From contig JAXLQJ010000034.1 in the NCBI GenBank assembly GCA_046331705.1, positions 1-64,000 of the forward strand: a stretch of 64,000 nt of DNA. The letters run 5' to 3'. The notes below the pieces were generated by a model that did not search any database, was not told the DNA's origin, and saw nothing but the letters and a program-made list of their open reading frames with translations. Shown in pieces: positions 4,216-49,256 of the stretch. Both the position numbers and the translations under genes were made by a program. This DNA comes from a bacterium. GTDB taxonomy: Bacteria > JADJOY01. Position 1 is the first letter of the stretch. Each line of letters opens with the position of its first letter.

Positions 4216-5787
4216 TCAGTAGTGGAACGTGAGCAGGAAACCGACGTTGAAGATGTGGCCGCCGACGGTCGCGGCGAAGGTGTCGTTGGGGCCGAAGTTG
4301 CCGCTCGAGATGCCGTTCTCGTCGGGAACGCCGATGTCGCGCGAGCCGCCCGCCATCTGGCTCTCGCCCACGGCCAGGTGACGGGGCACGATCTGCGCGA
4401 ACTGGAAGTGGGTCGCGACGTCGATCGCGCCGTCGTCGAGACCGCGCAGCTGAACGCCACCCGAATAGTAGAGCCGCGTGTTTGGATCCGAGCCGAACTC
4501 GTAAAAGCGGTCGGGCGTGGGCGTCGGGTCGTACCAGAAGCCGGTGGTGAGCACCAGCGGATCGAGCGGCTTCCACTCGACACCGAAGCGCGCGGCGTGG
4601 GTGCTGCGCGGGTTGCGGGCGATGCGGATCTCCTGGATCCCCCGCGGCGTGAGCAGGTTCGGATTGAGCCCGCCGCTCACGATCCGGATGTGATCGACCA
4701 CGCGGGCGTGCGCCCAGTCCGTGAAGTCGTATTCCGCCGTCACCATCCATTCGGCGTTGAGCTGGGCGCTCGCGCCGAAGGAGACGCGCTGGGGCAACGG
4801 GAAGTCGAGGTGGAAGTGGTCGCGATCGTCCTGGATGCCCGCTGCGCGGTAGATCGGGTGATCGAGGATCGCCTGCTCCCAATGGGTCTCGATCGAGCCC
4901 TGGACGGTCGGCTCGAGCTTGCTGCGATACGCGACCCCCACCCGTAGCCAATCGGTCGGGAAGAGCATCACGCCGAGGCGAAAGCCGGGCGTCTCGAAAT
5001 CCAGGTTGATGTCGTTGACCGGTGAGATGCCGAGCGGGAACCGTTGTGCGGCGCGTAGCAGCGTGTAGCCATCGTCGGTGCCGTTTTCCGTGGTGACGAT
5101 CGGCGTGAGCACGGACTCGGAGCTGCCGGTGACCGAGCGCGAGATGGACCGGCCCAAGGCGCCGTCGCCGAAGACCGCCTTTTGCCAGATGTCGTCGCCG
5201 ATCACGAGATCGAAGCCCGCCCCCACCGAGAGCCAGCCGTTCACCCTGGCCGCGAGCGTCGGCGACCAGGTGATGAACATCTGGCCGCCCTCGGCCGCCG
5301 AGAAACGCCCATCCCCGAAGGTCGCGGGCCACTGGGTCGTGCCGGCGAAAGGGGTCTGGATGACGAACGGGGTGAGATAGAGCCGCTCGTTGAGCTCGAA
5401 TCCGGACGGGAAGAAGGGCTGCGGGATCCAGTCCGGGAACTCGTCGTCCATGCGCACGGTCTGCCCGGCGCGAACGCGCGAGAGGCCGTCGACGGTCGAT
5501 TCACGGTATTCGAGACGGATGCCGCTCAGCGAGCCGCCGATGCTGGTCTCGCGCGTCGGTCCGCCGAGGAGCTGGGTCAGCCCCGCCGGGTTGTAGTAGT
5601 TCGCGGACAGATCGTCGGCGACCGCCACGAACGCATTGCCGAGCGAGATCGCGCGCGAGCCGAGGCCCAAGGTCTCCAGATAGGAAGCGTCGGCATCGCG
5701 TCGCGCGAGCAACGACGCGAGCGCGACCACGAACATCGCGCGTCGCCGGAAGCCGGTCGGTTCGCGCGTCGCTGCTGTTCGTGACAT
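4216..5787 (-). CDS. Outer-membrane transporter for hydrophobic compounds (FadL/OmpP1/TodX family)
   Basis: Signal peptide; GSRAISLGNAFVAVADDLSANYYNPAGL (FadL NPA motif); C-terminal beta strand ending in an aromatic residue. Confidence 0.85.
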   Translation of the reverse strand: MSRTAATREPTGFRRRAMFVVALASLLARRDADASYLETLGLGSRAISLGNAFVAVADDLSANYYNPAGLTQLLGGPTRETSIGGSLSGIRLEYRESTVDGLSRVRAGQTVRMDDEFPDWIPQPFFPSGFELNERLYLTPFVIQTPFAGTTQWPATFGDGRFSAAEGGQMFITWSPTLAARVNGWLSVGAGFDLVIGDDIWQKAVFGDGALGRSISRSVTGSSESVLTPIVTTENGTDDGYTLLRAAQRFPLGISPVNDINLDFETPGFRLGVMLFPTDWLRVGVAYRSKLEPTVQGSIETHWEQAILDHPIYRAAGIQDDRDHFHLDFPLPQRVSFGASAQLNAEWMVTAEYDFTDWAHARVVDHIRIVSGGLNPNLLTPRGIQEIRIARNPRSTHAARFGVEWKPLDPLVLTTGFWYDPTPTPDRFYEFGSDPNTRLYYSGGVQLRGLDDGAIDVATHFQFAQIVPRHLAVGESQMAGGSRDIGVPDENGISSGNFGPNDTFAATVGGHIFNVGFLLTFHY

Positions 5788-6600: not shown

Positions 6601-7290
6601 TCAGTCCGCGTGCGCGGCGGACTCGGCGCGCAGGCGCTGGACATCCCGGATCAGGATGCGCGCACGGCCGGTGCGCAACAGGCCCTCGGCCTCGAGAACC
6701 TTGAGCGTTCGCGACACGACCTCGCGCGCGGAGCCGGTCGAGCCCGCCAGCATCTCGTGGGTGACGTCCTCGACCACGATTCCGTCGGGCGCCATGCGCC
6801 CGTGGCGGTCGGCGAGATCGACGAGGACGTGCGCCAGGCGCCGTCGCACCGGCTCGCACGCGAGCGATTCGGTGAGCTGCGCGAGCTCGCCCAGGCGCTG
6901 CGCGAGGCAGCGGATGACGCCCGCGTCGAAGCGAGCGTCGCCTTGCAGCAACTCGCGACATTGATCGCCCGAGATCCGCATCAGCGCCACGTCGGTGAGG
7001 CATTCCACCGAGTACGGGCTCGGCAGACAGTGGTGGACCGAGCTGAAGCAGAAGCACTGGCCGGTGCCGAGGATCCAGAGCGTCTGCTCGCGCCCCTCCT
7101 CCGAGAGCCGATAGAGACGCACCTTGCCGCTGCTCAGGATGTAGATGCTCGGGTCCACGTCACCCTGGCGGCGGAACACCGCGCCGCGAGGATGGCGGAT
7201 CCGATCCGCGCGCTGCTCGAGGGAGTGGAGGACGTTCGACTCGAGTGCCTTGAGGCACCCGACCTCGCCAAGCGCTGCTGCGTCTCGCAT
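6601..7290 (-). CDS. Crp/Fnr family transcriptional regulator
   Basis: cNMP-binding barrel (IYILSSGKVRLYRLSEEGRE) and HTH THEMLAGSTGSAREVVSRTLK. Confidence 0.9.
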   Translation of the reverse strand: MRDAAALGEVGCLKALESNVLHSLEQRADRIRHPRGAVFRRQGDVDPSIYILSSGKVRLYRLSEEGREQTLWILGTGQCFCFSSVHHCLPSPYSVECLTDVALMRISGDQCRELLQGDARFDAGVIRCLAQRLGELAQLTESLACEPVRRRLAHVLVDLADRHGRMAPDGIVVEDVTHEMLAGSTGSAREVVSRTLKVLEAEGLLRTGRARILIRDVQRLRAESAAHAD

Positions 7291-7394: not shown

Positions 7395-8657
7395 TCATGG
7401 GCACGTCGCGGCAGGCACGGCCGCGGTCCAGCCGCAGAGCCCACCGGACTCGAAATCGTCGACGTAGACTCCCTGCACCTCGAAGTTGAAGGTGAGGGGC
7501 GGGTGGCCCGTGAAGCCGACGCTCACCTCGTCCAGGCAGCCCCGCCAATAGCTGCCGGCGATGCGGCGCAGGTGGAGCTCGGCGATGGGCGCATCGGCGG
7601 GGATGTCCTCGATCGACGCCGGCGGCGGATCGCCCTCCGCCTGCTCGATCAGGAGCGACCCGAGCAAGCTCGAGTGATTCCAGACACCCGTGGTGTGCGG
7701 CGCGCCGCTCGAATCCCAGCGCAGCCAGAACGTCCGCGAATCGCCCAAGGGATAGATCCGCAGCGCCACCTCGGGCGGCACGGCGGAGGAGCTCGCGGGG
7801 TCGAGGAACCAGTCCGCGGCGAGCACGTTCAGGTCACCGAACGTGCCGAAGTCCCACGACGATCCGGCCGTGACCCAGTTGGCGCCGTGCAGCGCCGTTC
7901 CCGCGAGCTCGAGCGAGCCCAGCCCGGCGCGCGGCTCGTAGCCCGAGATCCGCGCGACCGACGACGGCGGATCCTGGGAGGCGAGCCAGCGGGGATCGCC
8001 GGGGAAGACCAGCACCTCACCCACCCACGGCTCGAAGTCGAACGTCTTGGACGCGGCACCGGTCAAGCCGATCGTGATCTGATCGACGAACCCATGCCAG
8101 CTCGTCAGTGGGGTCGCCGCCGCCAGCGCCGCGACCAGGACGATCGGCGCGTCCGCGGCGATCTCGTCGAGCGAGCCCGGCGCCGAGGCGCCGATCGGCA
8201 CGATGGTGAGCGCGCTCGTCGGATGGGTGGTGGTCTGCCAGGCGTCCGTCGGCCGGTCGTCGCAGTAGCTGGGGCAGACGTCGGAGGAGAGACAGAAGGC
8301 CTTCGGATCGTCGTCCGGGTAGAAGCACACCAGCGCAGACGGCGGGGCAGCATCGGTGCTCGCCGAGTCGATGTACCAGTCGAAGCCGAGCGACACGAGG
8401 TCGGAGAACCGTGCGGCCGGCGCCGGGAAGCCCACGGCGACCGCGGCGCCCTCGCTGCCGAGCGGCGAGGTCATCTCGATCGAGCCGTACCCGCCGCGCG
8501 GCTGCGATTCGGAGATCGCCGCGCTCGCCGACGAGCCGGCAGGCACGTCGACGAAGATCTCGTTCGGGCGAACCGTGACGGTTTCAGCCGACGCTGGCGC
8601 GGCGGCGACCCAGACCCAGCCCCACACCACCAGCCACGCCCAGCTCGATCGCGTCAT
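7395..8657 (-). CDS. Secreted hypothetical protein with two tandem ~190-aa domains and a C-terminal DDFESG motif
   Basis: Signal peptide ending APASA; internal repeat (FSDLVSLGFDWYID / FGDLNVLAADWFLD; WHGFVDQITIGLTG..TFDFE / WRGCLDEVSVGFTG..TFNFE). Confidence 0.7.
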   Translation of the reverse strand: MTRSSWAWLVVWGWVWVAAAPASAETVTVRPNEIFVDVPAGSSASAAISESQPRGGYGSIEMTSPLGSEGAAVAVGFPAPAARFSDLVSLGFDWYIDSASTDAAPPSALVCFYPDDDPKAFCLSSDVCPSYCDDRPTDAWQTTTHPTSALTIVPIGASAPGSLDEIAADAPIVLVAALAAATPLTSWHGFVDQITIGLTGAASKTFDFEPWVGEVLVFPGDPRWLASQDPPSSVARISGYEPRAGLGSLELAGTALHGANWVTAGSSWDFGTFGDLNVLAADWFLDPASSSAVPPEVALRIYPLGDSRTFWLRWDSSGAPHTTGVWNHSSLLGSLLIEQAEGDPPPASIEDIPADAPIAELHLRRIAGSYWRGCLDEVSVGFTGHPPLTFNFEVQGVYVDDFESGGLCGWTAAVPAATCP

Positions 8658-16096: not shown

Positions 16097-16429
16097 ATGA
16101 GCAAGCCCGGCGATACCCAGCCCTCCACGGCCAACGACCCCGCGCTCGACGGCGGCGCCAGCCAGGCCGTGCAGGACCTCTCGTTCGTGATGGACATTCC
16201 CCTCGAGATCTCGGTCGAGCTGGGACGCACGCGTCTCAAGATCGAGGATCTCCTCTCCCTCGGCAGCGCTTCGGTGATCGAGCTCGATCGCTTCGCCGGC
16301 GAGCCGGTGGACGTGCTCGTGAACCGCAAGCTCATCGCGCGCGGCGAGTGCGTGGTGGTGCACGACAAGTTCGGCGTTCGCCTCACCGAGGTGGTGAGCG
16401 CGCGCGACCGGCTCGAGCCGCTGCGATGA
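16097..16429 (+). CDS. fliN: Flagellar motor switch protein FliN
   Basis: DIPLEISVELGRT...GEPVDVLVN...GECVVVHDKFGVR. Confidence 0.95.
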   Translation: MSKPGDTQPSTANDPALDGGASQAVQDLSFVMDIPLEISVELGRTRLKIEDLLSLGSASVIELDRFAGEPVDVLVNRKLIARGECVVVHDKFGVRLTEVVSARDRLEPLR

Positions 16430-16452
16430 CACCGCTTCGGGGAGCTGCGCCG

Positions 16453-17526
16453 ATGACCACCCGCGACCGCTTCCGCCCGTACCGCCAACGCCTCGCGTCG
16501 CTCGCCAGCCTGGCGCTCGGGCTCGTGCTCGCCGCCGACGCGCGCGCCTACGACGACTCCGGCAGCCGCGCTCCCACGCTCGCCGCCGAGCTCGACACCA
16601 GCGCCGTCAGCGCGAGCCGCGTCGACACCGAGGAGCCGCCCGCGGCACCCAAGCCCAAGACCCGCAAACCGTCGGTCGCGACCAAGCGCGCAGCCGACAC
16701 CGCGCCCGTGGCCGAGCAGCCCTCCGCGACCGCCGCGACGGCAGCAGCCGCGGCACCTGCGCCAACGAGCGTCGCTCGGGCCGCCGCCCCGGCCCCCGAG
16801 GCCACGGCCGCCGAGCCCCGCGCCGCGATTCAGCCGCTCACGCCGATCGCGCTGCCCACACCCGAGCCCTCGGCGCTCTCGACGCCGGTGTGGCCGCGAC
16901 CGGAGGCCGAGCGCAATGCCAGGCGCGTCGATTCCAGCGCACGCGGCGGCGACTCGACCGTGAGCCGCACCGCGCTCGGAGGCGGACTCGGCCTCGGCAA
17001 TCCGATCGATCTCGGCGCCGCGTTGACCCGCAGCGCCGCGTCGGTCGTGGTGTGCGTGCTGGTCGGCGGCGCGCTGCTCTTCTGGAGCAAGCGCCGCGGC
17101 CACGGTGCCCTCGCCGCCGCCGGCAACGACCGCGACCGCTTGCTGGTGATCGCGAGCCGGGCGCTGGCACCCCGTCGCAGCCTGCACCTGATCGAGGTCG
17201 AGGGTGTGCGGCTCTTGATCGGCGTCGACGCCGAGCAGATCCGTCCGCTGGCGCTGGTGCCGGCGACGCCGCACCCCGCCACGGCGGCCGCGGTCGCGTC
17301 GACGGTCGCCGCCACCGAGACCATGCGCGCCGCGGCAGCGCCGAAGCCCGCGGCAGCGGCCCGTCCGACGGCGCCCGAGCCCTCCCTCGAGACCGTCGAC
17401 GTGCGCGCCTCGCTCGAGCGCGCGACTCGCTCCGGCGCCGTGCGCGCCCCCGATCCGAGCGCGTTGCTCGGCCTCGCCTCGACCCTCAAGCGACATCTCA
17501 AGAACGGCAACGGGAGCGCGGCGTGA
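16453..17526 (+). CDS. fliO: FliO/FliZ-like export protein with a long Ala/Pro-rich N-terminal extension
   Basis: Lies between fliN and fliP; TM followed by LLVIASRALAPRRSLHLIEVEGVRLLIGV; start could be 16426. Confidence 0.75.
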   Translation: MTTRDRFRPYRQRLASLASLALGLVLAADARAYDDSGSRAPTLAAELDTSAVSASRVDTEEPPAAPKPKTRKPSVATKRAADTAPVAEQPSATAATAAAAAPAPTSVARAAAPAPEATAAEPRAAIQPLTPIALPTPEPSALSTPVWPRPEAERNARRVDSSARGGDSTVSRTALGGGLGLGNPIDLGAALTRSAASVVVCVLVGGALLFWSKRRGHGALAAAGNDRDRLLVIASRALAPRRSLHLIEVEGVRLLIGVDAEQIRPLALVPATPHPATAAAVASTVAATETMRAAAAPKPAAAARPTAPEPSLETVDVRASLERATRSGAVRAPDPSALLGLASTLKRHLKNGNGSAA

Positions 17527-18302
17527 ACCGCTCGTACCGACGGACCGCGGCCCGGGTGCTCGGGTACGCCGCCTGCGCGACGGTCGTCGCGCTGGCCTGG
17601 ACGGTTTCCGCTCACGCGCAAGCCAGCGGCGGGCCGTCGCTCAAGCTCGACCTCGGCGACCTGAGCGCCGGGCGTGCCTCCAACCTCATCGAGATGGTGG
17701 CGCTCATCACGGTGATCGGGCTCGCGCCCTCGGTGCTGGTGCTCTTCACCTCGTTCACGCGCATCCTGATCTCGCTCTCGATCCTGCGCCAGGCGCTCGG
17801 CCTGCCGCAGGTGCCGCCGAACCAGGTGCTGATCGGCCTGGCCCTCTTCCTGTCGGTGTTCGTGATGCGGCCGGTCTGGGAGCAGGTCGACACGCAGGCG
17901 CTCACGCCCTACCTCGCCGAGGAGATCGACGCTCGCGAGGGCCTAACGCGCGCCTGGGGCCCGGTGCGCACGTTCATGCTGGCGCAGACCCGCGACAGCG
18001 ACCTGGCGCTCTTCGTCGAGCTGTCGCGGCAGCCGATCCCGACGCAGCGCGAGGACGTGCGCTTCGACGCGCTCGCACCCGCGTTCCTCCTGAGCGAGCT
18101 CAAGACCAGCTTCCTGATCGGATTCCTGCTCTACGTGCCGTTCCTGGTGCTCGACCTGGTGGTGGGCTCGGTGCTGCTGGCGATGGGCATGATGGTGCTC
18201 CCGCCGGTGGTGATCTCCCTGCCCTTCAAGCTGCTGCTGTTCGTGATGGTCGACGGCTGGTCCCTGGTCGTCGGCTCGCTGGTACGGGGATTCCACACGT
18301 GA
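17523..18302 (+). CDS. fliP: Flagellar export protein FliP
   Basis: TSFTRILI..LRQALGLPQVPPNQVLIGLALFL; PAFLLSELK; LPFKLLLFVMVDGW. Confidence 0.95.
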   Translation: MNRSYRRTAARVLGYAACATVVALAWTVSAHAQASGGPSLKLDLGDLSAGRASNLIEMVALITVIGLAPSVLVLFTSFTRILISLSILRQALGLPQVPPNQVLIGLALFLSVFVMRPVWEQVDTQALTPYLAEEIDAREGLTRAWGPVRTFMLAQTRDSDLALFVELSRQPIPTQREDVRFDALAPAFLLSELKTSFLIGFLLYVPFLVLDLVVGSVLLAMGMMVLPPVVISLPFKLLLFVMVDGWSLVVGSLVRGFHT

Positions 18303-29543: not shown

Positions 29544-29915
29544 ACACGAGCGAGCGGTGGGGGAACCCAGTCGTGCGCCTCGCGGGTGTTGTCTGCGGGG
29601 GGCTGTTCCAGCCCCCCGCCCCACGAAGAGCGCGATCTTCGTGGGGCCCCACCCCCGAGTCACTCGCTGCGCTCGTGCGGCGCCGCTGGCGCCGGCCGAG
29701 CGAAACCGCTCGAGAACCGCGACTGGGTATGGCCATGGTGAGCACGAGCGAGCGGTGGGGGAACTCCGTCGTGCGCCTCGCGGATGCTGTCTGCGGGGGG
29801 CTGTTCCAGCCCCCCACCCCCGAGTCACTCGCTGCGCTCGTGCGGCGCCGCTGGCGCCGGCTGGACGAAGACAGTCGGGAACCCATGCTCGGTGCAGCCA
29901 CGGTGAGCACGAGCG
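29523..29915. repeat. Imperfect tandem repeat (unit starts 29523 and 29721, partial third near 29896) containing GC hairpins
   Basis: gactgggtatggcca...gcggcgccgctggcgccgg duplicated; copy 1 carries an extra 33-nt hairpin at 29618-29650. Confidence 0.9.
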
Positions 29916-40682: not shown

Positions 40683-42473
40683 ATGGCCAGCCCAGCGATC
40701 GCACCGTCTCTCGATCCCGCGCCGTCGGCCCGTGTGGTGCCGACGCGCTCCGGGTCCGCGACCCTCGAGCTCGACGGCGTCGCGCTGGCGAGCCGCATGG
40801 ACCCGGCGCGCGAGGCGGAATCCCTGATCGCAGCGCTCGACCCGGACGTGGAGTGGGTGTGGCTGATCGGCTGGAGCACGGGGCATCTGGCGCGGGCGAT
40901 CCTGGCGCGTTGCCGGCGCGCGCGAGTGCTCGTGTACGAGCCGAGCGCCACGATCCTCGCGGCCGCCCTCGCGCACCCGGAGCTCGCGCGGGGCAGCGAC
41001 GATCCGCGCGTCACCGTCGCCAGCGAGCCGTTCGCGCTGCGCTTCGAGTTCGAGGAGCATTTCCTGCCCGGCGCCACCCTCGCGACAGTGGTGCCGCCGG
41101 TCTATCGCCGGCTCTTCGGCGCCGCGATCGAAGAGCTCCTCGCGACCCTGGACCAGAGCCGGGTGCGCGTCGAGGCCAACGTCTTGAGCCGCATGGTGGT
41201 GGGCGGGACGTGGCTCGATCACCTGCTCCACAACGCGGCCACCATCGCCGCGTCCCCGTTCCTGGAAGACCTGCGCGATCGATTCCGTGGCGTGCCCGCG
41301 ATCTGCGTCGCCGCGGGGCCTTCGCTGGAAGGCAACGCCGACGTGCTGCGCGACGCTGGCGACCGCGCCCTGGTGATCTCCGTCGGCTCGGCGCTTCGGC
41401 CCCTGCAGCGGCGCGGCATCGATCCGCACTTCGCGGCGGCGATCGAGTGGCGCGACGGCGTGCTGAAGCAATTCGCCGACGCCGACCTGCAGCGCGTGTT
41501 CCTGCTGCTCTCGGCGGTGTCGCACCCCGACCTGCACCGGCTCAGCGCGGCGGGCCGCTTCACGGAGCTGCCCATGGGCAGTCCCGCCACCACGTGGCTC
41601 GGCGAGGTGCTCGACGTGCGACACGGCTTCCTGGAAGGCGGCTCGGTCGCGCACACGGCGTTCTCGACCGCGTTGCTTCTGGGGTGCGACCCGGTCGTGC
41701 TCGTCGGCCAGGACCTCGCGCTCAGCGCCACGCGCCACACGCACGCGGCGAGCTCGGTCCACGGACACCTGCAGGCGCACACCCCCAACCCGAACGAGAT
41801 CGATCCGCGCATGCGCCGCTACGTGCTGCCTGGCTATCACGGCGGCGAGGTCGAGACGTTGCGCGAGTTCTATTGCTACCACGCGTGGTTCGAGGACCGG
41901 ATCCACCAGCTCGACGGCGCGACCCGCATCATCAACGCCACCGAGGGCGGCGCGCGCATCCGCGGCACCGTGCAGCTCGGGCTGCGCGAGGTCGTCGACG
42001 GCCTGCAGCGCATCGGCGACCCGCGGCCGATCCTCGCCGACGCCGTGCTGCACGCACGGCGTCGGGACCCGTCGGTGCTGCACGCGGCGCTGCGCGAACG
42101 GCGGCGCGTGGCGAGTCGCGCCGCGCGGCTCGCCCGCGAGGCGCTGGCACAGATCGAGGCACTCGAAAAGCTGCCGCCCGGATCGGCACCGAGCGCGCGC
42201 GATGCGCGGCAGCTCGATCGCGCCGAGCGACAGCTGACACGCATCCTGGACGACGATCCCTTGATTCGGAGCCTCACCGGCGCCGCCATGTACCGATTCG
42301 AGCGGATGCGGGCAGCGGGCCCGCCGGCGGATCGCGCCGCCGCGTACCGTTGGTCGCTCGAGCTTTCGCGCCTCATCCACGGGGCCGTCGGCACCGCCGC
42401 GCGCGACCTCGCGCCCTTGCTCGACGAGGTGATCGCGACACTCGAGCACCAACCCGCCGAATCCAGCTCCTGA
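40683..42473 (+). CDS. maf: Motility-associated factor (Maf) flagellin glycosyltransferase family
   Basis: AICVAAGPSL; GGSVAH..LLGCDPVVLVGQDLA; IINATEGGARIRG. Confidence 0.9.
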   Translation: MASPAIAPSLDPAPSARVVPTRSGSATLELDGVALASRMDPAREAESLIAALDPDVEWVWLIGWSTGHLARAILARCRRARVLVYEPSATILAAALAHPELARGSDDPRVTVASEPFALRFEFEEHFLPGATLATVVPPVYRRLFGAAIEELLATLDQSRVRVEANVLSRMVVGGTWLDHLLHNAATIAASPFLEDLRDRFRGVPAICVAAGPSLEGNADVLRDAGDRALVISVGSALRPLQRRGIDPHFAAAIEWRDGVLKQFADADLQRVFLLLSAVSHPDLHRLSAAGRFTELPMGSPATTWLGEVLDVRHGFLEGGSVAHTAFSTALLLGCDPVVLVGQDLALSATRHTHAASSVHGHLQAHTPNPNEIDPRMRRYVLPGYHGGEVETLREFYCYHAWFEDRIHQLDGATRIINATEGGARIRGTVQLGLREVVDGLQRIGDPRPILADAVLHARRRDPSVLHAALRERRRVASRAARLAREALAQIEALEKLPPGSAPSARDARQLDRAERQLTRILDDDPLIRSLTGAAMYRFERMRAAGPPADRAAAYRWSLELSRLIHGAVGTAARDLAPLLDEVIATLEHQPAESSS

Positions 42474-42741
42474 ATCCGAATCACGCGGCGCGCCCGAGGA
42501 CTCCGTCGAGAGCATCCACGGCGCGAACGCGGCGGACGAGCACGCAACTCCGGCGCGGGCCCTCTCGCGCGTGTGCAGCTCGTCGCGCTCCCACCACGCC
42601 CACGCCGGGGCTGCTCGGTGCGCCCTGGCGTTCGCGGGTGGCGCGAACGCCGAGGCGCAGCCCCGTAGCCCCGCGCGGCGAGATCCCGAGCAATCCTGCG
42701 ACGCGCCGCGCGGCACGCCGCGTGCCTTGCAGCGTCGCGCC

Positions 42742-43671
42742 ATGGCGCGACCGCTCCGCTGGCTTCGGCCCAAGACCACGTGGTTCTGCACCAGCCGCGC
42801 GTTTCAGCGGCGGTTCTTGCTTCGGTGCGACCCCGATGCCAACGCGGTGTTCTTGCTCGCGCTCGCCCGCGCGCTCAAGCGATACACCGGCGTGAAGATC
42901 CACGCGGCGGTCACGGTTTCGAACCACTGGCACATGTTGCTCACCGACGAGCGATCCGAGCTCTCCGACTTCATGCGAGACTTCCTCACCGCGACCGCCA
43001 AGGGCATCAACCAGATTCGCGATCGCGAGGGACGCGTCTTCGATCGACGGTTCAGCGCCGAGCCCGTGCTCGACACCGCCGCGGCGATCGGGAGGCTCCT
43101 GTACACGGTCCTCAACCCGACGGCCGCGGGACTCGTTTCTCGATTCGAGGAATGGCCCGGAGTGATGCTCTTCGCGAAGGGCGACCAGCCCGAGGAGCAC
43201 CGCGTCCGCTGGTTCAACGAGAAGCGATACCGGGACGCCGTTCGCGAAGCGGCGGGATCGACGAAGACGATCGATCCCGCGTGGTTCTGGGAGGAAGAGA
43301 CGCTCACCGTCCATCCCCTCGAGGGGCTCGCCGAAGAGAACGTGACGCCCGAGCAGATCCTCGAGCGCATCCGCGCGGCCGAGGCCGAATGCGCGCGCGA
43401 GCGCAACGGGGTGCCGGTGCTCGGCGCGGCCACCGTGGTGCGGCAAGATCCGCGATCGAGACCGAAGCGCTCCAACCGATCGCCACGGCCGCTCTGCCAC
43501 GCGAGCAGCGACGCGCAGCGCAAGACCTATCGCGAGATGTTCAAGGAGTTTTGCGGGCGGTTCTGGGCCGCGGCGCTCGCCCTGCGGCGTGGCAACGGCG
43601 GGCAGCCGTTCCCCGAGTACTCGTTCCCCCCGTGGAAGCCGTTGGTGCGACCGGCGATCTCCACCGCGTAG
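42742..43671 (+). mobile_element. RAYT-like HUH (Y1) tyrosine transposase
   Basis: N-terminal TSR; SNHWH (HUH); G.VF.RRF; catalytic LLYTVLNP..AGLV..EEWP; no tnpB adjacent. Confidence 0.85.
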
Positions 43672-43853
43672 CGCTCGCTTCGCGTTCAGACTTCGTCGCA
43701 ACAACGGGAGTGATCCGTCCGCGATCGGCGGATGGGGCTCGTTCTCCGTCTGCGCGCTCGAGATCGACGTCGTGAAGCACATCGACGACCGCGAAACGGT
43801 GCGCTCAGCGCGTCAGTGACGGAGATTTCGAACGCTCCGCACGCGTCGCGAGC

Positions 43854-44127
43854 GAAACGCCGACTGGCACCAGCGAAAAGATGAGTGTCACCAATCCGGG
43901 GGGTCACCGAGGCGGCGGCCGCCTAGTAACACGACCCCTCCCCGCCTTTTCGGCCCAACTCCCCGTACTCAAGGAAGAATGTGTGCCTCCCGGCTGGGTC
44001 GAGAAGTCAAAGTCGGGTGTGTCCGTGGGCGCTCGTTCAACGCGCGCGATCAACAAGGTGGGTGGCACCCTGTCCTCCGGGGTCCACGAAACCGGGGCAA
44101 CTTCACAGCTGTGCTGGGGCAACTTCA
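43854..44127 (+). repeat. Array of short degenerate direct motifs (about AAAGY-GRGTGTCACC) plus a 12-bp direct repeat
   Basis: Copies at 43854-71, 43876-92, 43893-908, 43974-90, 44009-24 and 44052-69; GGGGCAACTTCA at 44094 and 44116. Confidence 0.55.
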
Positions 44128-44145
44128 GACACCCTATCCCTTATC

Positions 44146-44775
44146 TCAGTGGCTCGGGGGAAGCCCAGCACATAGCCCGGTCGATTCATTCCGAATTTCA
44201 AGCGGCATCCAGTCGCTCCAGATCTCACCAACCCATGACAAACCGTCAGACGTTTGCATCGAACTTGGCACTACGAGACCTACACGCAATCTGAATTGCC
44301 CGGGGGTGACAAGATCCCAGTTTTCCTCCGTTACAGGGGCGGCAATACTGTCCGCACAATCCGCGCTAATCGGAGGTGGCGATCGCCAAACCCACACTTT
44401 TCGCAATGCATCGCAACGCGTCAAATCCACATCGATGCGCAGCTCTGCTCCAGCCCCAAGCTTCGTCGCATCAACAGGTCCGACAAAGGTCGCAGATCGG
44501 AACTGACTCGCCTGCATCGACCGACACGCTGCTCGCTGAACATCCAACACGATGAATCGATCCACCGGAGGAAGCACAACCATTTCGGTTGATCGGTTCA
44601 CAAGCGTTACGCTTCCATGCACGACGGATCGCTGCACGGAAGGACTGACTAAAATTTCAATCCGCTGATCCGACGCCTTGCCCATCGCCCCGCTGGCCAC
44701 ACAGACAACAACAAAACATGAGAGCGCGAGCAGTCGTAGCGCCATCTCCATCGAAACGTGACGAGACCTGTACAT
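44146..44775 (-). CDS. Putative immunity protein (signal peptide, lower GC)
   Basis: Starts 7 bp after the Rhs stop; LALSCFVVVCVASGA hydrophobic signal; atypical composition. Confidence 0.6.
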   Translation of the reverse strand: MYRSRHVSMEMALRLLALSCFVVVCVASGAMGKASDQRIEILVSPSVQRSVVHGSVTLVNRSTEMVVLPPVDRFIVLDVQRAACRSMQASQFRSATFVGPVDATKLGAGAELRIDVDLTRCDALRKVWVWRSPPPISADCADSIAAPVTEENWDLVTPGQFRLRVGLVVPSSMQTSDGLSWVGEIWSDWMPLEIRNESTGLCAGLPPSH

Positions 44776-44781
44776 AGCAAC

Positions 44782-46960
44782 CTATCGGGGCGAACGCGAC
44801 GCATACCCCGGCGACAAATATTGCGTGGGGTCTTCCGCGAACGACTCACCCTTTTTTAGCGGGATCGCCCGTATATCCTCCTCCTCCCACACCAAGACAA
44901 CCCGAAAAATAGCCACCTTACTCCGATCGCGCACATCTCGCAAAATCCAATTTTGATACTTGACCTGCCACGGCGCCTTACCATCACTTGTTGGAATTCG
45001 ACATCCCCAAAAAGTCGCAGGATCACAATCCCAGTAGACTGCAAGCTCGTCCTGCAATGAAACATTATTTTGCATAGTCCAATTACTTGTCTCGCGAACC
45101 TGAAATTGAGCAGCAATATTTGTCTTCTCGCTTGTAAACTCTTCCCGAACGTCTCCGTCAAAGATTACGATTCGATCGTCAACGCTCTTATAAAAATAAG
45201 TAACTATTCTAGTATTTGTATATGGATGCAAGTCGCAGTGATCATCCAGCGGGCCAGGTCGATAGTCTAGGTGATCGATAGTCGCATGAGTCGGAAGATT
45301 TGGGCCGGAAGTGTTTGTGAGACCAATATTTACGCCGGACACCGTGCCAACAAGGTCCACGCGCGTAATATTGATACCCACTCCAATTTCAATCAATCCA
45401 GATGGGTCGAATCGATTCAGAGGGTTATTAGAGACATACGCATATCGATGTAGCGACCGTGGATCTCCGACAGTACCCTCCCATGGATCCCTCGCCGTAA
45501 ACCTCCCCGTTGCGTTATCGAGCCATCTTGCGCGGTGGTACCCCATCTCCAGCTGCGGATCGAAAACCTCCCCAAACGCCCGATGATTGAAGATCCACCC
45601 ACTCGGCTGCGTCTGCGCCAGGGTGTTCCCAAACGCATCATAGTCATACGACGCCACCACCGACGCGGAGGCATCCACCACCTTCCGGACCGAGTTCTGC
45701 CCATCCTTCAACACCCAATACCGCGCCGCCACTCCGGACCGTTCATCCTTGAACCCAATCAGATCCCCATCCAGATACAGGTAATCCGCCATCACCGCGT
45801 TCCCGACGTTGTCCCACTCTTGCAACACCTGCGCATACGGCAACGTCCGGTCGTACACGTACCGACGCTTCTGCGTCGTCGTGGGGCTCGACGTCACCCA
45901 CTGCTTCGTCCGCACGATCCCGTCCGGCGAGTACGCAAACTGGGTCTGGCTCCCATCGTCCTTCTTCACCAGCCGATCCCACGGATTCCAGACCAGGGGC
46001 GTCGCGCCGCGGAGCGTCAGACGGCCGCTCTCGTCCCAGCTCTGCAAGGTCTCCGCCTCGCCGTCCGGCGTGATCGACGTCAGGTGGTCGGCGTTGTCGT
46101 ACGCGTACGTCGTGGGACCCGAGAGCGTCGAGTCCGTCCGCTCCAGCCGGTTCCCCACGTCGTCGTACGTGAAGCCCTGGGTCCGATTCCCGTTCACCGA
46201 GTCGGTGATCGCCTCGCCCGTCAGCCGGTAGAGGTCGTCGTAGTCCCAGTGGATCGTCCGGCCAGAGGGCTGCTCCTCCACGTCGGTGCGGTTACCCGAC
46301 GGGCCGAGGGTGTAACTGTACGCCGCAAGCGTGCTGCTCGCCGTGGCGTGCTCGAGCAGCGTGAGCCGGTTCTGCTCGTTGTACTGGTAGCTCGTCGTCA
46401 CCCCGTTCGGGTACGCGATCGACTCGCGGTTCCCGTTCGGGTCGTAGCTCACGTGCACCGTCCCCGAGACTCCGGGAACGTGGACGTCCTTCGGTCGATT
46501 CAGCTCGTCGTAGTCCGTGGTGACCGTTCCGTACGGCGCTGGCGCCGTCACTGAGGTGCGGTTCCCGGCAGCATCGTACCCGAACGCCAACGTGTCCGGG
46601 AACGCGCCAGCACCTTCCGGGGTGGACTGGGTTTGGATCCGGCCGCGCGCGTCGTAGGTGAAGGCGATCGACCGGACGACGTCCGTCCCGCGCTTGATCT
46701 CCTTCTTCGAGAGCCGGCCGCCACCGCCCTGGTACGTGTAGTGGATCGACTCGGTGCCGGCCCCCGTGCCACTCGGGGTCTCGCTCAGCACCCGGTTCAT
46801 GGCGTCGTAGGTGTAGGTCGTGGTCACGCCGCCCACGGTCTTCGTGAGCCGGTTGCCGTTCGCATCGTAGGTGTAGGTCTCGACGTCGCGGTGGTCGTTG
46901 GCGTCGGGCGGGTAGGTCTTCTGGGTCATCCGACCGAGCGCATCATACGCAAAGCGGGTG
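44782..46960 (-). CDS. 5'-truncated (orphan) Rhs/YD-repeat protein with a novel ~200-aa C-terminal domain
   Basis: YD repeats (YDALGR, YDANGNR, YDAAGNR), Rhs core ending YVSNNPLNRFDPSGL, AT-richer tip; Rhs-like sequence stops near 46960; first ATG at 46929. Confidence 0.88.
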
Positions 46961-47367
46961 TCACGATCGTTGCCGGGGGTGGAGCGCCTCGCCCAGGGCC
47001 CGCGAGAGTCCGGGAGAGCCGGGACCGCGCATGGAGGACGTGGGGCCAGCCCGCCTGCTGCGCACGCCGCCGGTAATCGGTGTGATCCGGACTTCGCCCG
47101 GTGATCGGCGCCGGGCGGTCGCCCGGGCGCCCGGCCGCACTCCGCCGTAGGCCGCGACGATCGATTCCTTCCGGGGCGCCCTGGAACTTCCTGCCTAGCC
47201 TCGGGCCAATCGCCCCCGCCCGGTGTGCACCCAGACCGGTTCAGATCGCTCCTCCGAGCCAGTCTGGAGCCCAGGGGCGCCCGCGCCGAGCCGCCGTGGC
47301 GCCGCCGTGCTTGCGAAAAACGCGCGCAAATCACGGCGGAAGGAGCAGAACGCCCGGTGCGCGGGGC

Positions 47368-47383
47368 CGGCACGACCCTTGCT
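47368..47383 (+). promoter_or_regulatory. sigma54 promoter of the glycosylation operon
   Basis: CGGCACGACCCTTGCT. Confidence 0.75.
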
Positions 47384-47464
47384 CACCGACCGTTCTGCCA
47401 CCGAACGGTGAGCGCCTGCAGCGATCAACCCGATCGCGCGCAGCGTTCCCCCGGTGAGAACCGC

Positions 47465-48121
47465 ATGGACTCGACGACCTTCGATCTGGACGCGCCGAAC
47501 TTTCCCGCGCCCTTCCTGGAGCGCGCTGCCTTTCTCTCCCCCGCGCGACCGCTGCGCGAGCTGTGGCTCTTGATGTCGCTCGGCCACGACGAGTCGCTGA
47601 GCCAGCATCGCCTCGCGCGCCGCGTGGGACTCAGCCCCGCGCGGGTGAACGAGTATCTGCGCGAGCTCGAGGAGCGCGGCTGGGTGGCACGCGAGGGCGA
47701 GACCAACCGCACGATCCGCTATCGCTTGACCGAGGCCGGACGCAGCGCGCGCCGCGACGCGTTCCTGGCGTTTTGCGGCGAGATGGTGCGCCTCTACGGT
47801 CATACCAAGCTGCCGTTTCGCGCGGCGCTCAGCGAGCTGGCGGCGAGCGGCCTCAAGCGGTTGGTGCTGTTCGGCGCCGCCGAGACTTGCGAGATGGTGA
47901 GCGCCGCCGCGCGCGGCTTGCCGATCGAGGTCGCCGGGGTCGTCGACGGCGACCCGGCGCGGGTCGGCACCTGGCTCGGCGGCCACTGCGTCGCCTCGCC
48001 CGACTCCATCCCCGCCTTCGAGCCCGACGCGGTGCTGATCACCTCGTTCGGCGCGCGTCACGCCATCTACGAATCCATCCGCGGGCTCGAGAGCCGCGGT
48101 ATCGCGGTGCGCCAGCTCTGA
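47465..48121 (+). CDS. Winged-helix (MarR-like) regulator with a C-terminal Rossmann-like domain
   Basis: SQHRLARRVGLSPARVNEYL..Y.LT..G; then LVLFGAAE..VAGVVD..DAVLITS. Confidence 0.75.
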   Translation: MDSTTFDLDAPNFPAPFLERAAFLSPARPLRELWLLMSLGHDESLSQHRLARRVGLSPARVNEYLRELEERGWVAREGETNRTIRYRLTEAGRSARRDAFLAFCGEMVRLYGHTKLPFRAALSELAASGLKRLVLFGAAETCEMVSAAARGLPIEVAGVVDGDPARVGTWLGGHCVASPDSIPAFEPDAVLITSFGARHAIYESIRGLESRGIAVRQL

Positions 48122-48149: not shown

Positions 48150-49256
48150 ATGCAACGCTTTCCCATCGACGGTCGCGAGATCGGCCCCGGCGCACCCACC
48201 TTCATCGTGGCCGAGGCCGGCATCAATCATCAGGGCGATCGCGAGATGGCGCTGGAGCTGATCCGCGCCGCGGACGAGGCCGGCGCGGACGCCATCAAGT
48301 TCCAGAAGCGAAGCCTGGACCGCATCCTCACCCGCAGCGGGCTGGCGATGCCCTACGAGCACGCCAACAGCTTCGGCCGCACCTACGGCGAGCACAAGGC
48401 GGCGCTCGAGCTCTCCGAGGACGATTGGCACGCCTTGCGCGACGCCGCCGAGGACCGCGGCCTCTTCTTCTTCGCGTCCGTGTGGGACGAGGAGAGCGCC
48501 GACTTCTGCGCCGACCTCGGCGCCCCGCTCTTCAAGATCGCCTCGGCGGACGTCACCAACCTCCCGCTGCTGTTGCACGTCGCACGGAAGAACCGGCCGG
48601 TGTTCGTGTCGACCGGCATGTCGGATCTCGACGAGATCGACAACGTGGTGCGCGTGCTGCGCGCAGCGGGAACGCCGCACGTGCTCTTGCAGTGCACCTC
48701 GACGTACCCCACTCGCGACGCCGACGTGAACCTGCGGGCGATGGAGCTCCTGCGTTCGCGCTATGGCTGCCCGGTCGGCTACTCGGGCCACGAATCGGGC
48801 ATCGAGATCTCGCTGGCGGCGGTGGCCCTCGGTGCCTGCGTGATCGAGCGCCACCTGACGATCGACAAGACGCTCAAGGGCGGCGACCACGCCGCGAGCC
48901 TCGAGCCCGACGAGCTCGCCCGAATGGTGCGCGGCATCCGCCGCATCGAGGCCGCGCTCGGCAGCCCGCAGAAGCGCTGCTTGCCGGCCGAGCGCACGGT
49001 GCGCCGCAAGCTCGCCAAGAGCCTGGTCACGACCACGGCGATCACGCCGGGGCAGCGCATCGAGGAATGGATGCTCACCACCAAGGGACCGGGCACGGGG
49101 TTCTCGCCCGACCGCATCGGCGAGATCGTGGGACGCATCGCGTCGCGCTCGATCCCCGAGGACGTGGTGCTCACCGACGACGATCTCATCCCCACCCTCG
49201 GCGACGCGTACGTCGCCCGCGTCACCGGCCGGCGCTTCGTCGTCGGGCTGAACTGA
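48150..49256 (+). CDS. NeuB/SpsE/PseI-family nonulosonate synthase with C-terminal SAF domain
   Basis: IVAEAGINHQGD; GADAIKFQK; KIASAD; STGMS; GYSGHE; IERHLT; DHAASLEP. Confidence 0.93.
   Translation: MQRFPIDGREIGPGAPTFIVAEAGINHQGDREMALELIRAADEAGADAIKFQKRSLDRILTRSGLAMPYEHANSFGRTYGEHKAALELSEDDWHALRDAAEDRGLFFFASVWDEESADFCADLGAPLFKIASADVTNLPLLLHVARKNRPVFVSTGMSDLDEIDNVVRVLRAAGTPHVLLQCTSTYPTRDADVNLRAMELLRSRYGCPVGYSGHESGIEISLAAVALGACVIERHLTIDKTLKGGDHAASLEPDELARMVRGIRRIEAALGSPQKRCLPAERTVRRKLAKSLVTTTAITPGQRIEEWMLTTKGPGTGFSPDRIGEIVGRIASRSIPEDVVLTDDDLIPTLGDAYVARVTGRRFVVGLN

What the first reader, a model, noticed from the sequence alone, without database searches (positions are those of the whole stretch)
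42742..46966. RAYT-like HUH transposase with a motif array that brackets a captured Rhs toxin/immunity cassette: candidate integron-like capture system
Seen: a Y1 HUH nuclease (NHWH; Y..NP) without tnpB. About 180 bp downstream are same-strand copies of a short motif: gaaacgccgactggcacc (43854), aaaagatgagtgtcacc (43876), aatccggggggtcacc (43893), gaagaatgtgtgcctcc (43974), aaagtcgggtgtgtcc (44009) and aacaaggtgggtggcacc (44052). They are separated by unrelated 0-65 bp pieces. After the last copy comes a ~2.9-kb, partly lower-GC block (immunity gene plus 5'-truncated Rhs). A further copy, aaagcgggtgtcacga (46951-46966), lies exactly where Rhs-like coding stops and host-like non-coding DNA resumes. 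The unit interrupts a flagellar locus between maf and the glycosylation operon. Known: HUH/Y1 enzymes cut and rejoin ssDNA at short motifs. Inference: each motif is a cleavage/joining scar, and the enzyme accumulates foreign fragments in a polar array rather than spreading classical REP palindromes. The motifs are degenerate, so this remains a hypothesis.
Basis: partly seen in the sequence, partly recalled or inferred. Interest (0 to 1): 0.82.

Follow-up and report, generated by a model that had tools for sequence, protein, structure and literature searches.

The report
Y1 transposon carrying an Rhs toxin cassette
A small single-strand-DNA transposon of a previously undescribed RAYT/IS200-like family sits in a flagellar gene cluster together with a toxin/immunity cassette, and relatives of this transposon are repeatedly found next to such cassettes, which suggests that it moves them.

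Summary

- **Enzyme.** Window 42742-43671 encodes a 309-aa Y1/HUH protein. Its best fold match is the E. coli RAYT structure 4ER8.
- **Family.** It is one of 10 full-length paralogs in this genome. Each has a GTGnCAC core, a spacer and a G-run about 200 nt after its stop codon, often in tandem. A PWM shows the same motif downstream in 6 of 17 external loci (9 hits against 0.07 expected).
- **Insertion.** Three relatives have maf directly followed by the regulator and neuB. The roughly 4.5-kb block is therefore an insertion.
- **Rhs piece.** It is 87% identical in DNA to the inside of a 4632-aa Rhs gene of a same-genus genome. Homology stops at 46977, not 46966. That is 13 nt after the motif core and inside a G-run, the same geometry as at genuine right ends.
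- **Second case.** An 88%-identical element elsewhere carries a different cargo between two right-end copies, and this genome has the empty site.
- **Association.** Both Rhs core domains of this genome lie 1.7 kb downstream of, and convergent with, a family member.

Best reading: an IS200/RAYT-like element co-mobilises flanking DNA by using alternative right ends. Integron-like capture remains possible.

The parts
42474..42577 (.). Left part of the inserted block, of unassigned origin, between the maf stop codon and the first sequence shared with other family members.
   Evidence: G001 similarity ends at 42436. Similarity to other copies starts at 42578.
42578..42741 (+). Left end and 5' leader of the Y1 element. 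It contains a conserved imperfect hairpin at 42619-42659 and a small hairpin (ggcacgccgcgtgcc) at 42712-42726 just before the ATG.
   Evidence: RNAalifold on 14 copies gives 15 pairs, 4 of them with compensatory changes. The region is shared with C8, C72, C105 and L032.
42742..43671 (+). Y1/HUH transposase-like gene, 309 aa. The N-terminal ~140 aa form a RAYT-like domain. The ~170-aa C-terminal extension carries invariant SPRPLCH and FP..P motifs.
   Evidence: Pfam Y1_Tnp 18.5 bits, below the cut-off of 23. NCBIfam REP_Tyr_transpos 56.4 bits, below 80, over residues 6-139. Invariant N61, H62, H64 and Y121 in 15 sequences. Fold match to 4er8_A.
43672..43853 (+). 3' leader between the stop codon and the right end, conserved within the subfamily.
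   Evidence: 80-86% DNA identity to C8, L031 and L032 up to 43896-43901.
43854..43903 (+). Right end (RE) of this element: ctggcacc, then gagtgtcacc, aatcc and gggggg. Homology to the closest elements stops here.
   Evidence: PWM 24.5 at 43876. L032 homology ends at 43896 and L031 homology at 43901. Joints and loose ends in metagenome contigs fall at 43892-43901.
43904..44026 (+). Two short pieces, each ending in a weak motif and a G-run (cores near 43980 and 44015). Their origin is unknown.
   Evidence: PWM 7.3 at 43974 and below 6 at 44009. Contigs in X1 and X8 carry this piece behind a different sequence (loose ends at 43901).
44027..44082 (+). 5'-truncated terminal piece of another subfamily's 3' end, with its RE unit ggtgggtggcacc ctgtcctcc gggg.
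   Evidence: 89-95% identity to the 3' ends of the C6, C72 and C31 copies, whose proteins are only 38-39% identical to this one. PWM 27.7. Loose ends at 44027.
44146..44775 (-). Candidate immunity gene, 209 aa, with an N-terminal hydrophobic signal-like segment.
   Evidence: ORF. No Pfam or NCBIfam family. The assignment rests on its position directly after the toxin gene (inference).
44782..46977 (-). 5'-truncated Rhs gene. It has YD repeats, the Rhs-associated core (45394-45642) and a low-GC C-terminal domain of unknown family (44782-~45390).
   Evidence: RHS_repeat 8e-34. TIGR03696 and YD_repeat_2x. 87.5% DNA identity to G002's 4632-aa Rhs over 46977-45480, with divergence beyond.
46949..46979 (+). 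RE-like pseudo-site inside the Rhs-derived DNA: gggtgtcac, gatcgttgcc, ggggg. The Rhs breakpoint lies in its G-run.
   Evidence: PWM 8.6, p = 3e-5 per position. The breakpoint is at 46977. The geometry equals that of the C6 RE/Rhs junction.
46980..47100 (.). Unassigned DNA between the Rhs breakpoint and host-like DNA. It may belong to the insertion.
   Evidence: No significant match in the 6 genomes of the family. Weak similarity of 47019-47072 to the G001 empty site (z about 1.9). One X1 contig has 2- and 9-nt deletions at 46994 and 46999.
47108..47132 (+). GC-rich hairpin, probably the displaced maf terminator. Host-like DNA starts here.
   Evidence: Similarity to the G003 interval seen by eye in the alignment. 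G001 matches from 47167.

Best explanation
Window ~42480-47100 is one composite insertion with three parts.

1. **A 1.3-kb element of a RAYT/IS200-related Y1/HUH family** that my searches did not find described. It consists of a left hairpin, the tnp gene, a ~190-nt 3' leader and a right end. The right end is made of units of a GTGnCAC core, about 6-10 nt of spacer and a G-run.
2. **A short stack of RE-terminated remnants.**
3. **An orphan-type Rhs cassette.** It holds an immunity gene, a C-terminal toxin domain, the Rhs core and 1.3 kb of YD repeats. It lies convergent to tnp.

Proposed mechanism, inferred and not shown: the HUH enzyme cuts single-stranded DNA just 3' of an RE unit. When it uses a more distal RE or an RE-like site instead of the proximal one, the DNA in between travels with the element. 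This is 3' transduction, as in ISCR/IS91 elements and Helitrons. Here the distal site was a look-alike inside an Rhs gene that lay tail-to-tail with the element in a donor.

The product is by construction a 5'-truncated rhs with its toxin tip and immunity gene, that is, a mobile orphan cassette. The immunity gene could explain why such composites are retained.
For: **The block is an insertion**
- Three relatives have the uninterrupted maf-regulator interval.
- Contigs from 4 independent studies span both junctions.

**The right end is the end of the conserved unit**
- Homology to the 88%- and 91%-identical elements L032 and L031, which sit at other loci, stops at 43896-43901.

**The motif is family-wide and oriented**
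- A core-like motif lies 190-240 nt after the stop codon in 10 of 10 full-length paralogs.
- In external loci there were 9 downstream hits against 0.074 expected, 4 inverted upstream hits against 0.061, and 0 in the wrong orientation.

**The far boundary has right-end geometry**
- The pseudo-site reads gggtgtcac + 13 nt ending in a G-run, with the breakpoint at 46977.
- The genuine C6 unit reads ggcacc ctgtca ggggg|Rhs fragment.

**There is a second composite**
- L032 is a ~3.0-kb insertion against the empty site at G000:C6:131552/131516.
- It carries a lower-GC HEAT-repeat ORF between RE1 and a 26.5-bit RE2.

**The association with Rhs recurs and is polar**
- Rhs_assc_core hits lie within 2 kb downstream of, and convergent with, a Y1 gene in G000 for 2 of 2, G002 for 1 of 3 and G003 for 1 of 5.
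- Further Rhs pieces lie downstream and convergent in C6, L046 and L048.
- All 6 tblastn hits to external loci were downstream and on the opposite strand.

**The parent gene is missing here**
- The only two pieces of the G002-type YD region in G000 (C34 and C6) both abut Y1 right ends. No full-length parent is present.

**The enzyme fits**
- The HUH and Tyr residues are invariant and the fold is RAYT/IS608-like.
Against: - No excised circle, RE-LE junction or donor configuration was observed. One search used contigs, which drop rare forms.
- The outer right boundary of the insertion is unresolved (46978 to ~47100-47166). About 40-190 nt there are unexplained.
- In L032 about 350 nt follow RE2 before host DNA resumes. 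The last motif is therefore not the outer edge in either composite.
- The pseudo-site is a weak PWM hit found post hoc.
- G002's intact gene has a poorer version at the same place.
- The empty sites show no motif; the best PWM score is 3.3. The targeting rule is unknown.
- G005 has 5 Rhs cores, including orphan-like ones, and no Y1 gene. Y1 is therefore not needed to make orphans.
- In G003:C13 three orphans are truncated at the usual conserved core position. Two of them have a palindromic junction and none has an RE-like core there.
- The genomes are MAGs and related to each other, so the counts are not independent.
Confidence: 0.42

Rival explanations
1. Integron-like capture. Segments that end in an RE unit ([cargo-RE]) are excised as single strands and inserted one at a time just 3' of a resident RE. 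This builds a polar array next to tnp. The Rhs cassette would be one such unit.
For: - The array reads as successive RE-terminated units: 43854-43903, 43904-~43998, ~43999-44026, 44027-44082, then the cargo ending in the pseudo-RE.
- 5'-truncated tnp copies sit directly after an RE in C72 and L038.
- The same pattern appears in metagenome contigs as the joints 43897->43570, 43892->43769 and 44078->43769.
- A 50-aa, 96%-identical copy of part of the neighbouring toxin gene lies between motif copies in the C3 array.
- Piece 43904-44026 occurs behind another core-like sequence in other contigs.
- Closely related elements carry different cargo after the same RE.
Against: - No circles were seen.
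- The Rhs unit ends in a coding-sequence look-alike, not a dedicated site.
- The cargo is convergent and not driven from the array.
- Both composites with a known empty site are absent as a whole from relatives. This fits movement as one piece at least as well.
- The same junctions can arise by tandem insertion followed by deletion.
Confidence: 0.25
2. The association is due to site preference and hitch-hiking only. The element inserts between a stop codon and the terminator, often between convergent genes. Rhs loci are recombination-prone islands. The block reached the maf site by homologous recombination or another island mechanism, and the far motif is chance.
For: - The left ends of several copies start right after the stop codon of a co-oriented gene (L032, C8, C1, C3).
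- A GC hairpin follows the insertion at 47108-47132.
- The pseudo-site scores only 8.6 bits.
- G002's full-length Rhs is followed by an IS3-type element, not a Y1 element.
- G005 has orphan-like Rhs cores without any Y1 gene.
Against: - 4 of 10 Rhs cores in the three Y1-bearing genomes of the genus that have Rhs cores (G000, G002, G003) lie within 2 kb downstream of a Y1 gene. About 0.04 would be expected from the fraction of genome covered (related genomes are not independent).
- The orientation is always convergent.
- The C6 junction falls exactly after a G-run.
- A second, non-Rhs cargo is bracketed by true REs.
Confidence: 0.2
3. A domesticated RAYT with its REP arrays. The gene is a vertically inherited host gene, the motifs are its REP or REPIN partners, and the neighbouring cassette is unrelated.
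For: - The best fold and family matches are to RAYT.
- 7 of 12 paralog loci have inverted motif arrays on both sides.
- The paralogs are old, at 37-86% identity.
Against: - There are 10 full-length paralogs instead of one.
- Copy number ranges from 0 (G005) to 13-14 matches (G000, G002) within one family of genomes.
- The elements show presence/absence polymorphism.
- The motif is not dispersed.
- The NCBIfam and Pfam cut-offs are not reached.
Confidence: 0.08

Closest known systems
RAYT / TnpA_REP (REP-associated tyrosine transposase, E. coli; PDB 4ER8)
   Same: - Y1/HUH fold; it is the best structural match.
- It is the best family match, over the whole 146-position profile.
- In most subfamilies the gene is flanked by short repeats in inverted orientation.
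   Different: - About twice as long, with a conserved 170-aa C-terminal extension.
- Multi-copy and variable in number between relatives.
- The repeats are tandem units of core, spacer and G-run confined to the gene's flanks, not hundreds of dispersed REPINs.
- The score is below the family cut-off (56.4 against 80).
IS200/IS605 TnpA elements (IS608, ISDra2)
   Same: - HUH and a single Tyr, and the same fold.
- A conserved imperfect hairpin near the left end.
- Different left and right ends.
- No terminal inverted repeats of the classical kind.
- Single-strand 'peel and paste' chemistry is the natural model (recalled knowledge).
   Different: - No near-identical copies.
- The right end consists of tandem short repeats.
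- Passenger DNA lies between right-end copies.
- Pfam Y1_Tnp is below its cut-off.
- The target and cleavage sites are unknown.
ISCR / IS91 elements and Helitrons (capture of flanking DNA by read-through of the terminator end)
   Same: Works alike: an HUH enzyme, a polar element, and downstream DNA carried along when the normal end is skipped. This is recalled knowledge.
   Different: Those enzymes are Y2 or Rep-helicase proteins of other folds and sizes that act by rolling circle. This is a Y1 protein, so it is not a member.
Integron gene cassettes
   Same: - A polar array next to the enzyme gene.
- Each unit ends in a recombination site.
- Sites are probably read as single strands.
   Different: - The enzyme is HUH, not a tyrosine recombinase.
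- There is no attI/attC and no cassette promoter.
- The cargo is convergent and includes gene fragments.
Orphan rhs toxin/immunity modules (as described for Enterobacteria; recalled: Poole et al. 2011, Koskiniemi et al. 2014, not read here)
   Same: A 5'-truncated rhs that retains the core (TIGR03696), a variable C-terminal domain and a downstream small ORF.
   Different: - It is not downstream of a full-length rhs; none is found in this genome.
- It retains 1.3 kb of YD repeats.
- It sits in a flagellar glycosylation locus, attached to a Y1 element.

Membership tests
IS200/IS605-type Y1 HUH transposase superfamily | HUH metal-binding motif and a single catalytic Tyr on the following helix | tested here: met
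   NHWH (N61, H62, H64) and Y121 are invariant in 15 sequences.
IS200/IS605-type Y1 HUH transposase superfamily | Y1 transposase fold | tested here: met
   Model pLDDT 83. Foldseek matches are 4er8_A (1.9e-6), 2a6m, 2xm3, 2vjv and 2f4f.
IS200/IS605-type Y1 HUH transposase superfamily | Pfam PF01797 above its gathering score | tested here: not met
   18.5 bits against 23.
IS200/IS605-type Y1 HUH transposase superfamily | Subterminal imperfect hairpins at both ends, recognised on one strand | tested here: inconclusive
   The left hairpin is conserved, with 4 of 15 compensatory pairs. A 3'-leader hairpin was seen by eye only. Binding was not tested.
IS200/IS605-type Y1 HUH transposase superfamily | Mobility (presence/absence at orthologous sites) | tested here: met
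   Empty sites exist for C34 (G001, G003, G005) and for L032 (G000:C6).
RAYT (REP-associated tyrosine transposase) | NCBIfam NF047646 equivalog cut-off | tested here: not met
   56.4 bits against 80.
RAYT (REP-associated tyrosine transposase) | Single or few copies per genome, vertically inherited | tested here: not met
   10 full-length paralogs plus 2 cut at contig ends. Between 0 and 14 matches in five related genomes.
RAYT (REP-associated tyrosine transposase) | Flanked by REP sequences in inverted orientation | tested here: inconclusive
   Met for 7 of 12 paralog loci. For C34, C8 and C1 only the downstream side carries the motif.
RAYT (REP-associated tyrosine transposase) | Cognate REP/REPIN dispersed through the genome in many copies | tested here: not met
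   GGGTGGCACC has 82 hits, 21 of them in paralog flanks. The 61 elsewhere compare with a median of 51 for same-composition words.
Integron | IntI tyrosine recombinase with attI, and cassettes of ORF plus attC expressed from Pc | tested here: not met
   The enzyme is HUH. The cargo is convergent and partly made of fragments.
ISCR/IS91 (Y2 HUH rolling-circle elements) | Y2 Rep-like transposase with oriIS/terIS | tested here: not met
   The fold and family matches are Y1. The ends were not compared.
Rhs orphan toxin/immunity cassette | 5'-truncated rhs with core domain, variable C-terminal domain and adjacent immunity ORF | tested here: met
   TIGR03696 at 45394-45642. The truncation is shown against G002's 4632-aa gene. 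A 209-aa ORF follows. Toxin and immunity activity were not tested.
Rhs orphan toxin/immunity cassette | Located downstream of a full-length rhs of the same type | tested here: not met
   There is no other long Rhs match in G000. The only other YD piece is a 106-nt fragment on C6.

The most novel reading that the evidence does not exclude
A family of Y1/HUH elements in these Myxococcota-like bacteria acts as a single-strand, HUH-based counterpart of the integron. Its right-end unit (GTGnCAC core, spacer, G-run) would serve both as the end of the element and as the docking site for further RE-terminated segments. In this way the element would create, stack and move orphan Rhs toxin/immunity cassettes and other genes between loci and genomes.
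Probability: 0.25. Interest if true: 0.85.

Novelty: new variant of a known kind. Interest (0 to 1): 0.62.

Why it matters
How orphan Rhs and other polymorphic-toxin cassettes arise and move between genomes is poorly understood.

Y1/HUH elements are thought of either as minimal insertion sequences or as domesticated RAYTs. Neither is known for carrying cargo. A Y1 family that repeatedly carries toxin/immunity cassettes behind its right end would give a concrete and testable route for spreading immunity genes and toxin tips.

It would also extend gene capture by end read-through, known from ISCR/IS91 elements and Helitrons, to the Y1 class. The short, well-defined right-end unit is directly testable in vitro.

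Tried and rejected
- **Rfam scan** of 42300-47400 at E <= 1 gave only two sub-threshold chance hits.
- **Origin of 46978-47170** in 6 related genomes: nothing beyond 30-38-nt chance matches.
- **Homology of the G001 empty site** to the window's inner flanks was not significant (left z about 0, right z about 1.9). The exact outer junctions therefore stay open.
- **A target site resembling the motif** is rejected. The best PWM score in the three empty sites is 3.3.
- **PF03527 as an Rhs marker** was too insensitive, with 3 hits in 5 genomes. It was replaced by TIGR03696.
- **tblastn with the whole G002 Rhs protein** is swamped by its N-terminal repeat domains. Only the YD part (aa >3300) is informative.
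- **A full-length protein with the same C-terminal domain** was not found among 1281-3655-aa proteins. This is weak evidence.
- **The protein atlas** gave no usable relative for the C-terminal domain.
- **Our-findings look-up** returned nothing.
- **Excision joints.** The contig joints that skip the whole insertion (41968->47362, 42415->47606, 42435->47506) have sides of 20-24 letters or filler. They may come from other organisms and are not used as evidence of excision.
- **Literature.** Searches with the terms 'RAYT'+'Rhs'; 'orphan'+'Rhs'+'transposase'+'toxin-immunity'+'horizontal'; 'REP-associated tyrosine transposase'+'Myxococc'; and 'IS200'+'IS605'+'passenger gene'+'single-strand' found no paper linking Y1/RAYT elements to Rhs cassettes. 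For the one candidate preprint, 10.1101/2024.07.17.603846, I read the passages found for the terms 'rhs' and 'RAYT'. It treats the two topics separately. For all other papers I saw only the search listings.

Full report
**What is there**

The window is contig C34 of an 8.17-Mb, 118-contig genome with about 70% GC. The ORFs in and around the reported interval are listed below.

| Coordinates | Strand | Content |
|---|---|---|
| 40683-42473 | + | maf, MptE-like, 1e-31 |
| 42742-43671 | + | 309-aa ORF with NHWH and Y..NP |
| 44146-44775 | - | 209-aa ORF without family |
| 44782-~46977 | - | Rhs-repeat ORF, RHS_repeat 8e-34 |
| 47465-48121 | + | winged-helix regulator |
| 48150-49256 | + | neuB |

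GC falls from about 0.72 to 0.42 around 45000-45300.

**The enzyme**

- Pfam Y1_Tnp scores 18.5 bits, below its cut-off of 23.
- NCBIfam REP_Tyr_transpos matches residues 6-139 over the whole profile at 56.4 bits, below its cut-off of 80.
- An alignment of 15 family members keeps N61, H62, H64 and Y121 invariant. It also shows a conserved C-terminal half with SPRPLCH and FP..P motifs.
- The AlphaFold model (pLDDT 83) is closest to the E. coli RAYT bound to a REP hairpin (4er8_A, E 1.9e-6). IS608, ISDra2 and IS200 transposases follow.
- The protein is therefore a Y1/HUH nuclease most like RAYTs, about twice their size.

**The family and its ends**

The genome holds 12 matches. Ten are full-length at 37-86% identity, and two are cut by contig ends.

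About 190-240 nt after the stop codon of all 10 full-length copies there is a core of the form (a/g)aGGTG(g/a)GTGnCAC(c). It is followed by 6-10 nt and a G-run. This core-spacer-G-run unit is often repeated in tandem with a subfamily-specific spacer. Examples are 'ggcaccgttcggggg' five times after the C29 copy, and 'caaggtgggtggcaccctgtcaggggg' three times after the C6 copy.

Seven of the 12 loci have the reverse complement (..ggtgccaccc) in arrays upstream. The C34, C8 and C1 subfamily does not.

All copies share an imperfect hairpin about 85-130 nt before the ATG (window 42619-42659). It has 15 pairs, 4 of them with compensatory changes across 14 copies.

The motif is not a dispersed REP:
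- GGGTGGCACC occurs 82 times in the genome, 21 of them in paralog flanks, which make up about 0.4% of the genome.
- The remaining 61 compare with a median of 51 for same-composition words.
- A few solo sites exist.

I built a PWM from 18 instances next to the other nine paralogs and scanned 42400-47300.

| Position | Score (bits) | Comment |
|---|---|---|
| 44053-44069 | 27.7 | strong |
| 43876-43892 | 24.5 | strong |
| 46949-46965 | 8.6 | weak, p = 3e-5 per position |
| 43974-43990 | 7.3 | weak |
| 43855-43871 | 6.6 | weak, but conserved in the closest homologs |
| 44009 | below 6 | not detected |

As an independent test I scanned 17 loci from other genomes that were not used for training:
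- 9 same-strand hits of at least 12 bits in the 700 nt after the stop codon, against 0.074 expected; 6 of the 17 loci have at least one.
- 4 inverted hits upstream, against 0.061 expected.
- 0 hits in the wrong orientation among 16,000 positions.

More distant homologs (33-37% identity) show the same architecture with other repeat words. The PWM does not see these.

**Anatomy of the array**

- Homology to the two closest elements stops at 43896-43901. These are L032 (88% protein identity) and L031 (91%), and they sit at other loci. The element proper therefore ends with 'gagtgtcacc aatcc gggggg' at about 43903.
- 44027-44082 is 89-95% identical to the last ~50 nt of the 3' regions of the C6, C72 and C31 copies. 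Their proteins are only 38-39% identical to this one. It is a 5'-truncated end of another subfamily.
- 43904-44026 holds the two weak motif copies. In metagenome contigs this piece also occurs behind another sequence (loose ends at 43901).
- 5'-truncated second copies directly after a right end are also seen in C72 and L038. Contig joints show the same: 43897->43570, 43892->43769 and 44078->43769.

**The block is an insertion**

- In G001 (same genus, Maf 81% identical), G003 and G005, maf is followed within about 300 nt by the regulator and neuB.
- G001 matches the window up to 42436 and again from 47167.
- G003 similarity, including a GC hairpin, starts near 47100 by eye from the alignment.
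- Contigs from four independent studies span both junctions. Examples are 42183-42762 and 46950-47192. The structure is therefore not an assembly artefact.

**The Rhs piece**

- A same-genus genome (G002) has a 4632-aa Rhs ORF.
- Window 46977-45480 is 87.5% identical in DNA to its codons ~3914-4412. The C-terminal domain and the following gene differ.
- The breakpoint is 13 nt after the CAC of 'gggtgtcac' and within the G-run 46975-46979.
- This matches genuine units. The 106-nt Rhs fragment on C6 corresponds to G002 codons ~3585-3620. It is joined exactly after 'ggcacc ctgtca ggggg' of the last C6 unit.
- These two pieces are the only matches to the YD region of that Rhs type in the genome. 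No full-length Rhs is present.

**A second composite**

L032's flanks are syntenic with G000:C6. There, positions 131552 and 131516 are only about 35 nt apart, so G000 has the empty site for a ~3.0-kb insertion.

That insertion holds, in order:
- the left hairpin and tnp;
- RE1 (7129-7190);
- a lower-GC (55-60%) HEAT-repeat ORF;
- a 26.5-bit RE2 with the same subfamily spacer (8445-8470);
- a further ~350 nt.

The same kind of element therefore carries different cargo behind its right end at another locus.

**Association with Rhs**

| Genome | Rhs_assc_core hits | Within 2 kb downstream of, and convergent with, a Y1 gene |
|---|---|---|
| G000 | 2 | 2 |
| G002 | 3 | 1 |
| G003 | 5 | 1 |
| G005 | 5 | 0 (no Y1 gene in this genome) |

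- These counts come from TIGR03696 compared with the Y1 matches.
- In G003 the other four cores have strong right-end motifs nearby on the opposite strand.
- In the other G000 case (C3), a 653-aa protein with FG-GAP repeats and an Rhs core, plus a 133-aa ORF, follow the array. A 96%-identical 50-aa fragment of that gene lies between motif copies.
- tblastn of Rhs queries against the 20 external loci (L031-L050) gave 6 hits in 3 loci (L033, L046, L048). All are downstream and on the opposite strand.
- The genomes are related MAGs, so these counts are not independent.

**Interpretation**

Shown:
- the enzyme class;
- a family-wide, oriented right-end unit;
- the insertion status of two composites;
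- the origin of the Rhs piece;
- junctions that fall after G-runs;
- a recurrent, polar linkage to Rhs cassettes.

Inferred:
- the enzyme cuts after the unit;
- use of a distal or look-alike unit carries the intervening DNA along.

An integron-like mode also fits the stacked remnants. In that mode, RE-terminated segments insert next to a resident right end. It cannot be excluded.

Against both readings:
- No circles or donor sites were seen.
- The outer right edge is unresolved (46978 to ~47100-47166).
- DNA follows the last motif in both composites.
- The empty sites have no motif.
- G005 and the G003:C13 orphan array show that orphan cassettes also arise without this geometry.

**Literature**

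Four full-text searches found nothing that links Y1/RAYT elements to Rhs cassettes. For one preprint I read the passages found for the search terms; for the rest I saw only search listings. Statements about IS608 chemistry, ISCR/IS91 elements, Helitrons, integrons and enterobacterial orphan rhs modules are recalled knowledge and were not read here.

Noticed in passing
window 29579-29698; G000:C1:205890-207108 and 24 other contigs; L031:1130-1545: A ~155-nt repeat family with an internal 12-bp hairpin occurs in tandem arrays and dispersed. It has 91 HSPs, 63 of them near full length, on 25 contigs. In L031 it starts directly after the Y1 right end, and there the unit junction reads 'gatcggtcacccggg'. 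It may be a non-autonomous partner of the family.
   Followed up: partly
L064 (G003:C13:55000-64000) 1040-1100 and 3205-3250: In an array of three orphan Rhs cassettes, two 5' truncation points carry a perfect palindrome (gttctgcccat ccttca atgggcagaac). About 170 shared nt and a cluster of strong right-end motifs follow, with no tnp gene nearby.
   Followed up: partly
L022 (G000:C3:21500-29500) 1665-2025 and 2354-4719: This is a second toxin locus behind a paralog. A 653-aa protein has FG-GAP repeats, an Rhs core and a low-GC tip, and a 133-aa hydrophobic ORF follows. A 50-aa, 96%-identical copy of part of the toxin gene lies between motif copies in the array.
   Followed up: partly
G000:C49:27795-27850 and C49:1-150; C43:25958; C44:23197 and 18523: Solo right-end arrays or single strong motif copies occur without an adjacent tnp gene. 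The C43 site is followed by lower-GC DNA.
   Followed up: no
window 46994-47008: One contig of run X1 lacks 2 and 9 nt at 46994 and 46999, directly beside the Rhs breakpoint. This region varies between populations.
   Followed up: no
window 42437-42473: The last ~12 codons of maf do not align with G001, G003 or G005. The insertion may have replaced the original end of the gene.
   Followed up: no
L032:5829-5866; G000 C8, C1 and C3 paralog loci: The left ends of several family members begin within a few to ~40 nt after the stop codon of a co-oriented host gene, ahead of a GC hairpin. This hints at insertion between stop codon and terminator.
   Followed up: no
3' leaders of the C6, C72 and C31 copies (about 70-100 nt after the stop codon): A conserved hairpin GCGTCG..CGACGC is replaced by GCATCG..GATGC in C31, an apparently compensatory change. 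This was seen by eye only.
   Followed up: no
L063 (G002:C25) 16390-17560: The full-length 4632-aa Rhs gene of G002 and its small downstream ORF are followed by what looks, from the sequence alone, like a two-ORF IS3-type transposase, not a Y1 element. No family scan was run.
   Followed up: no
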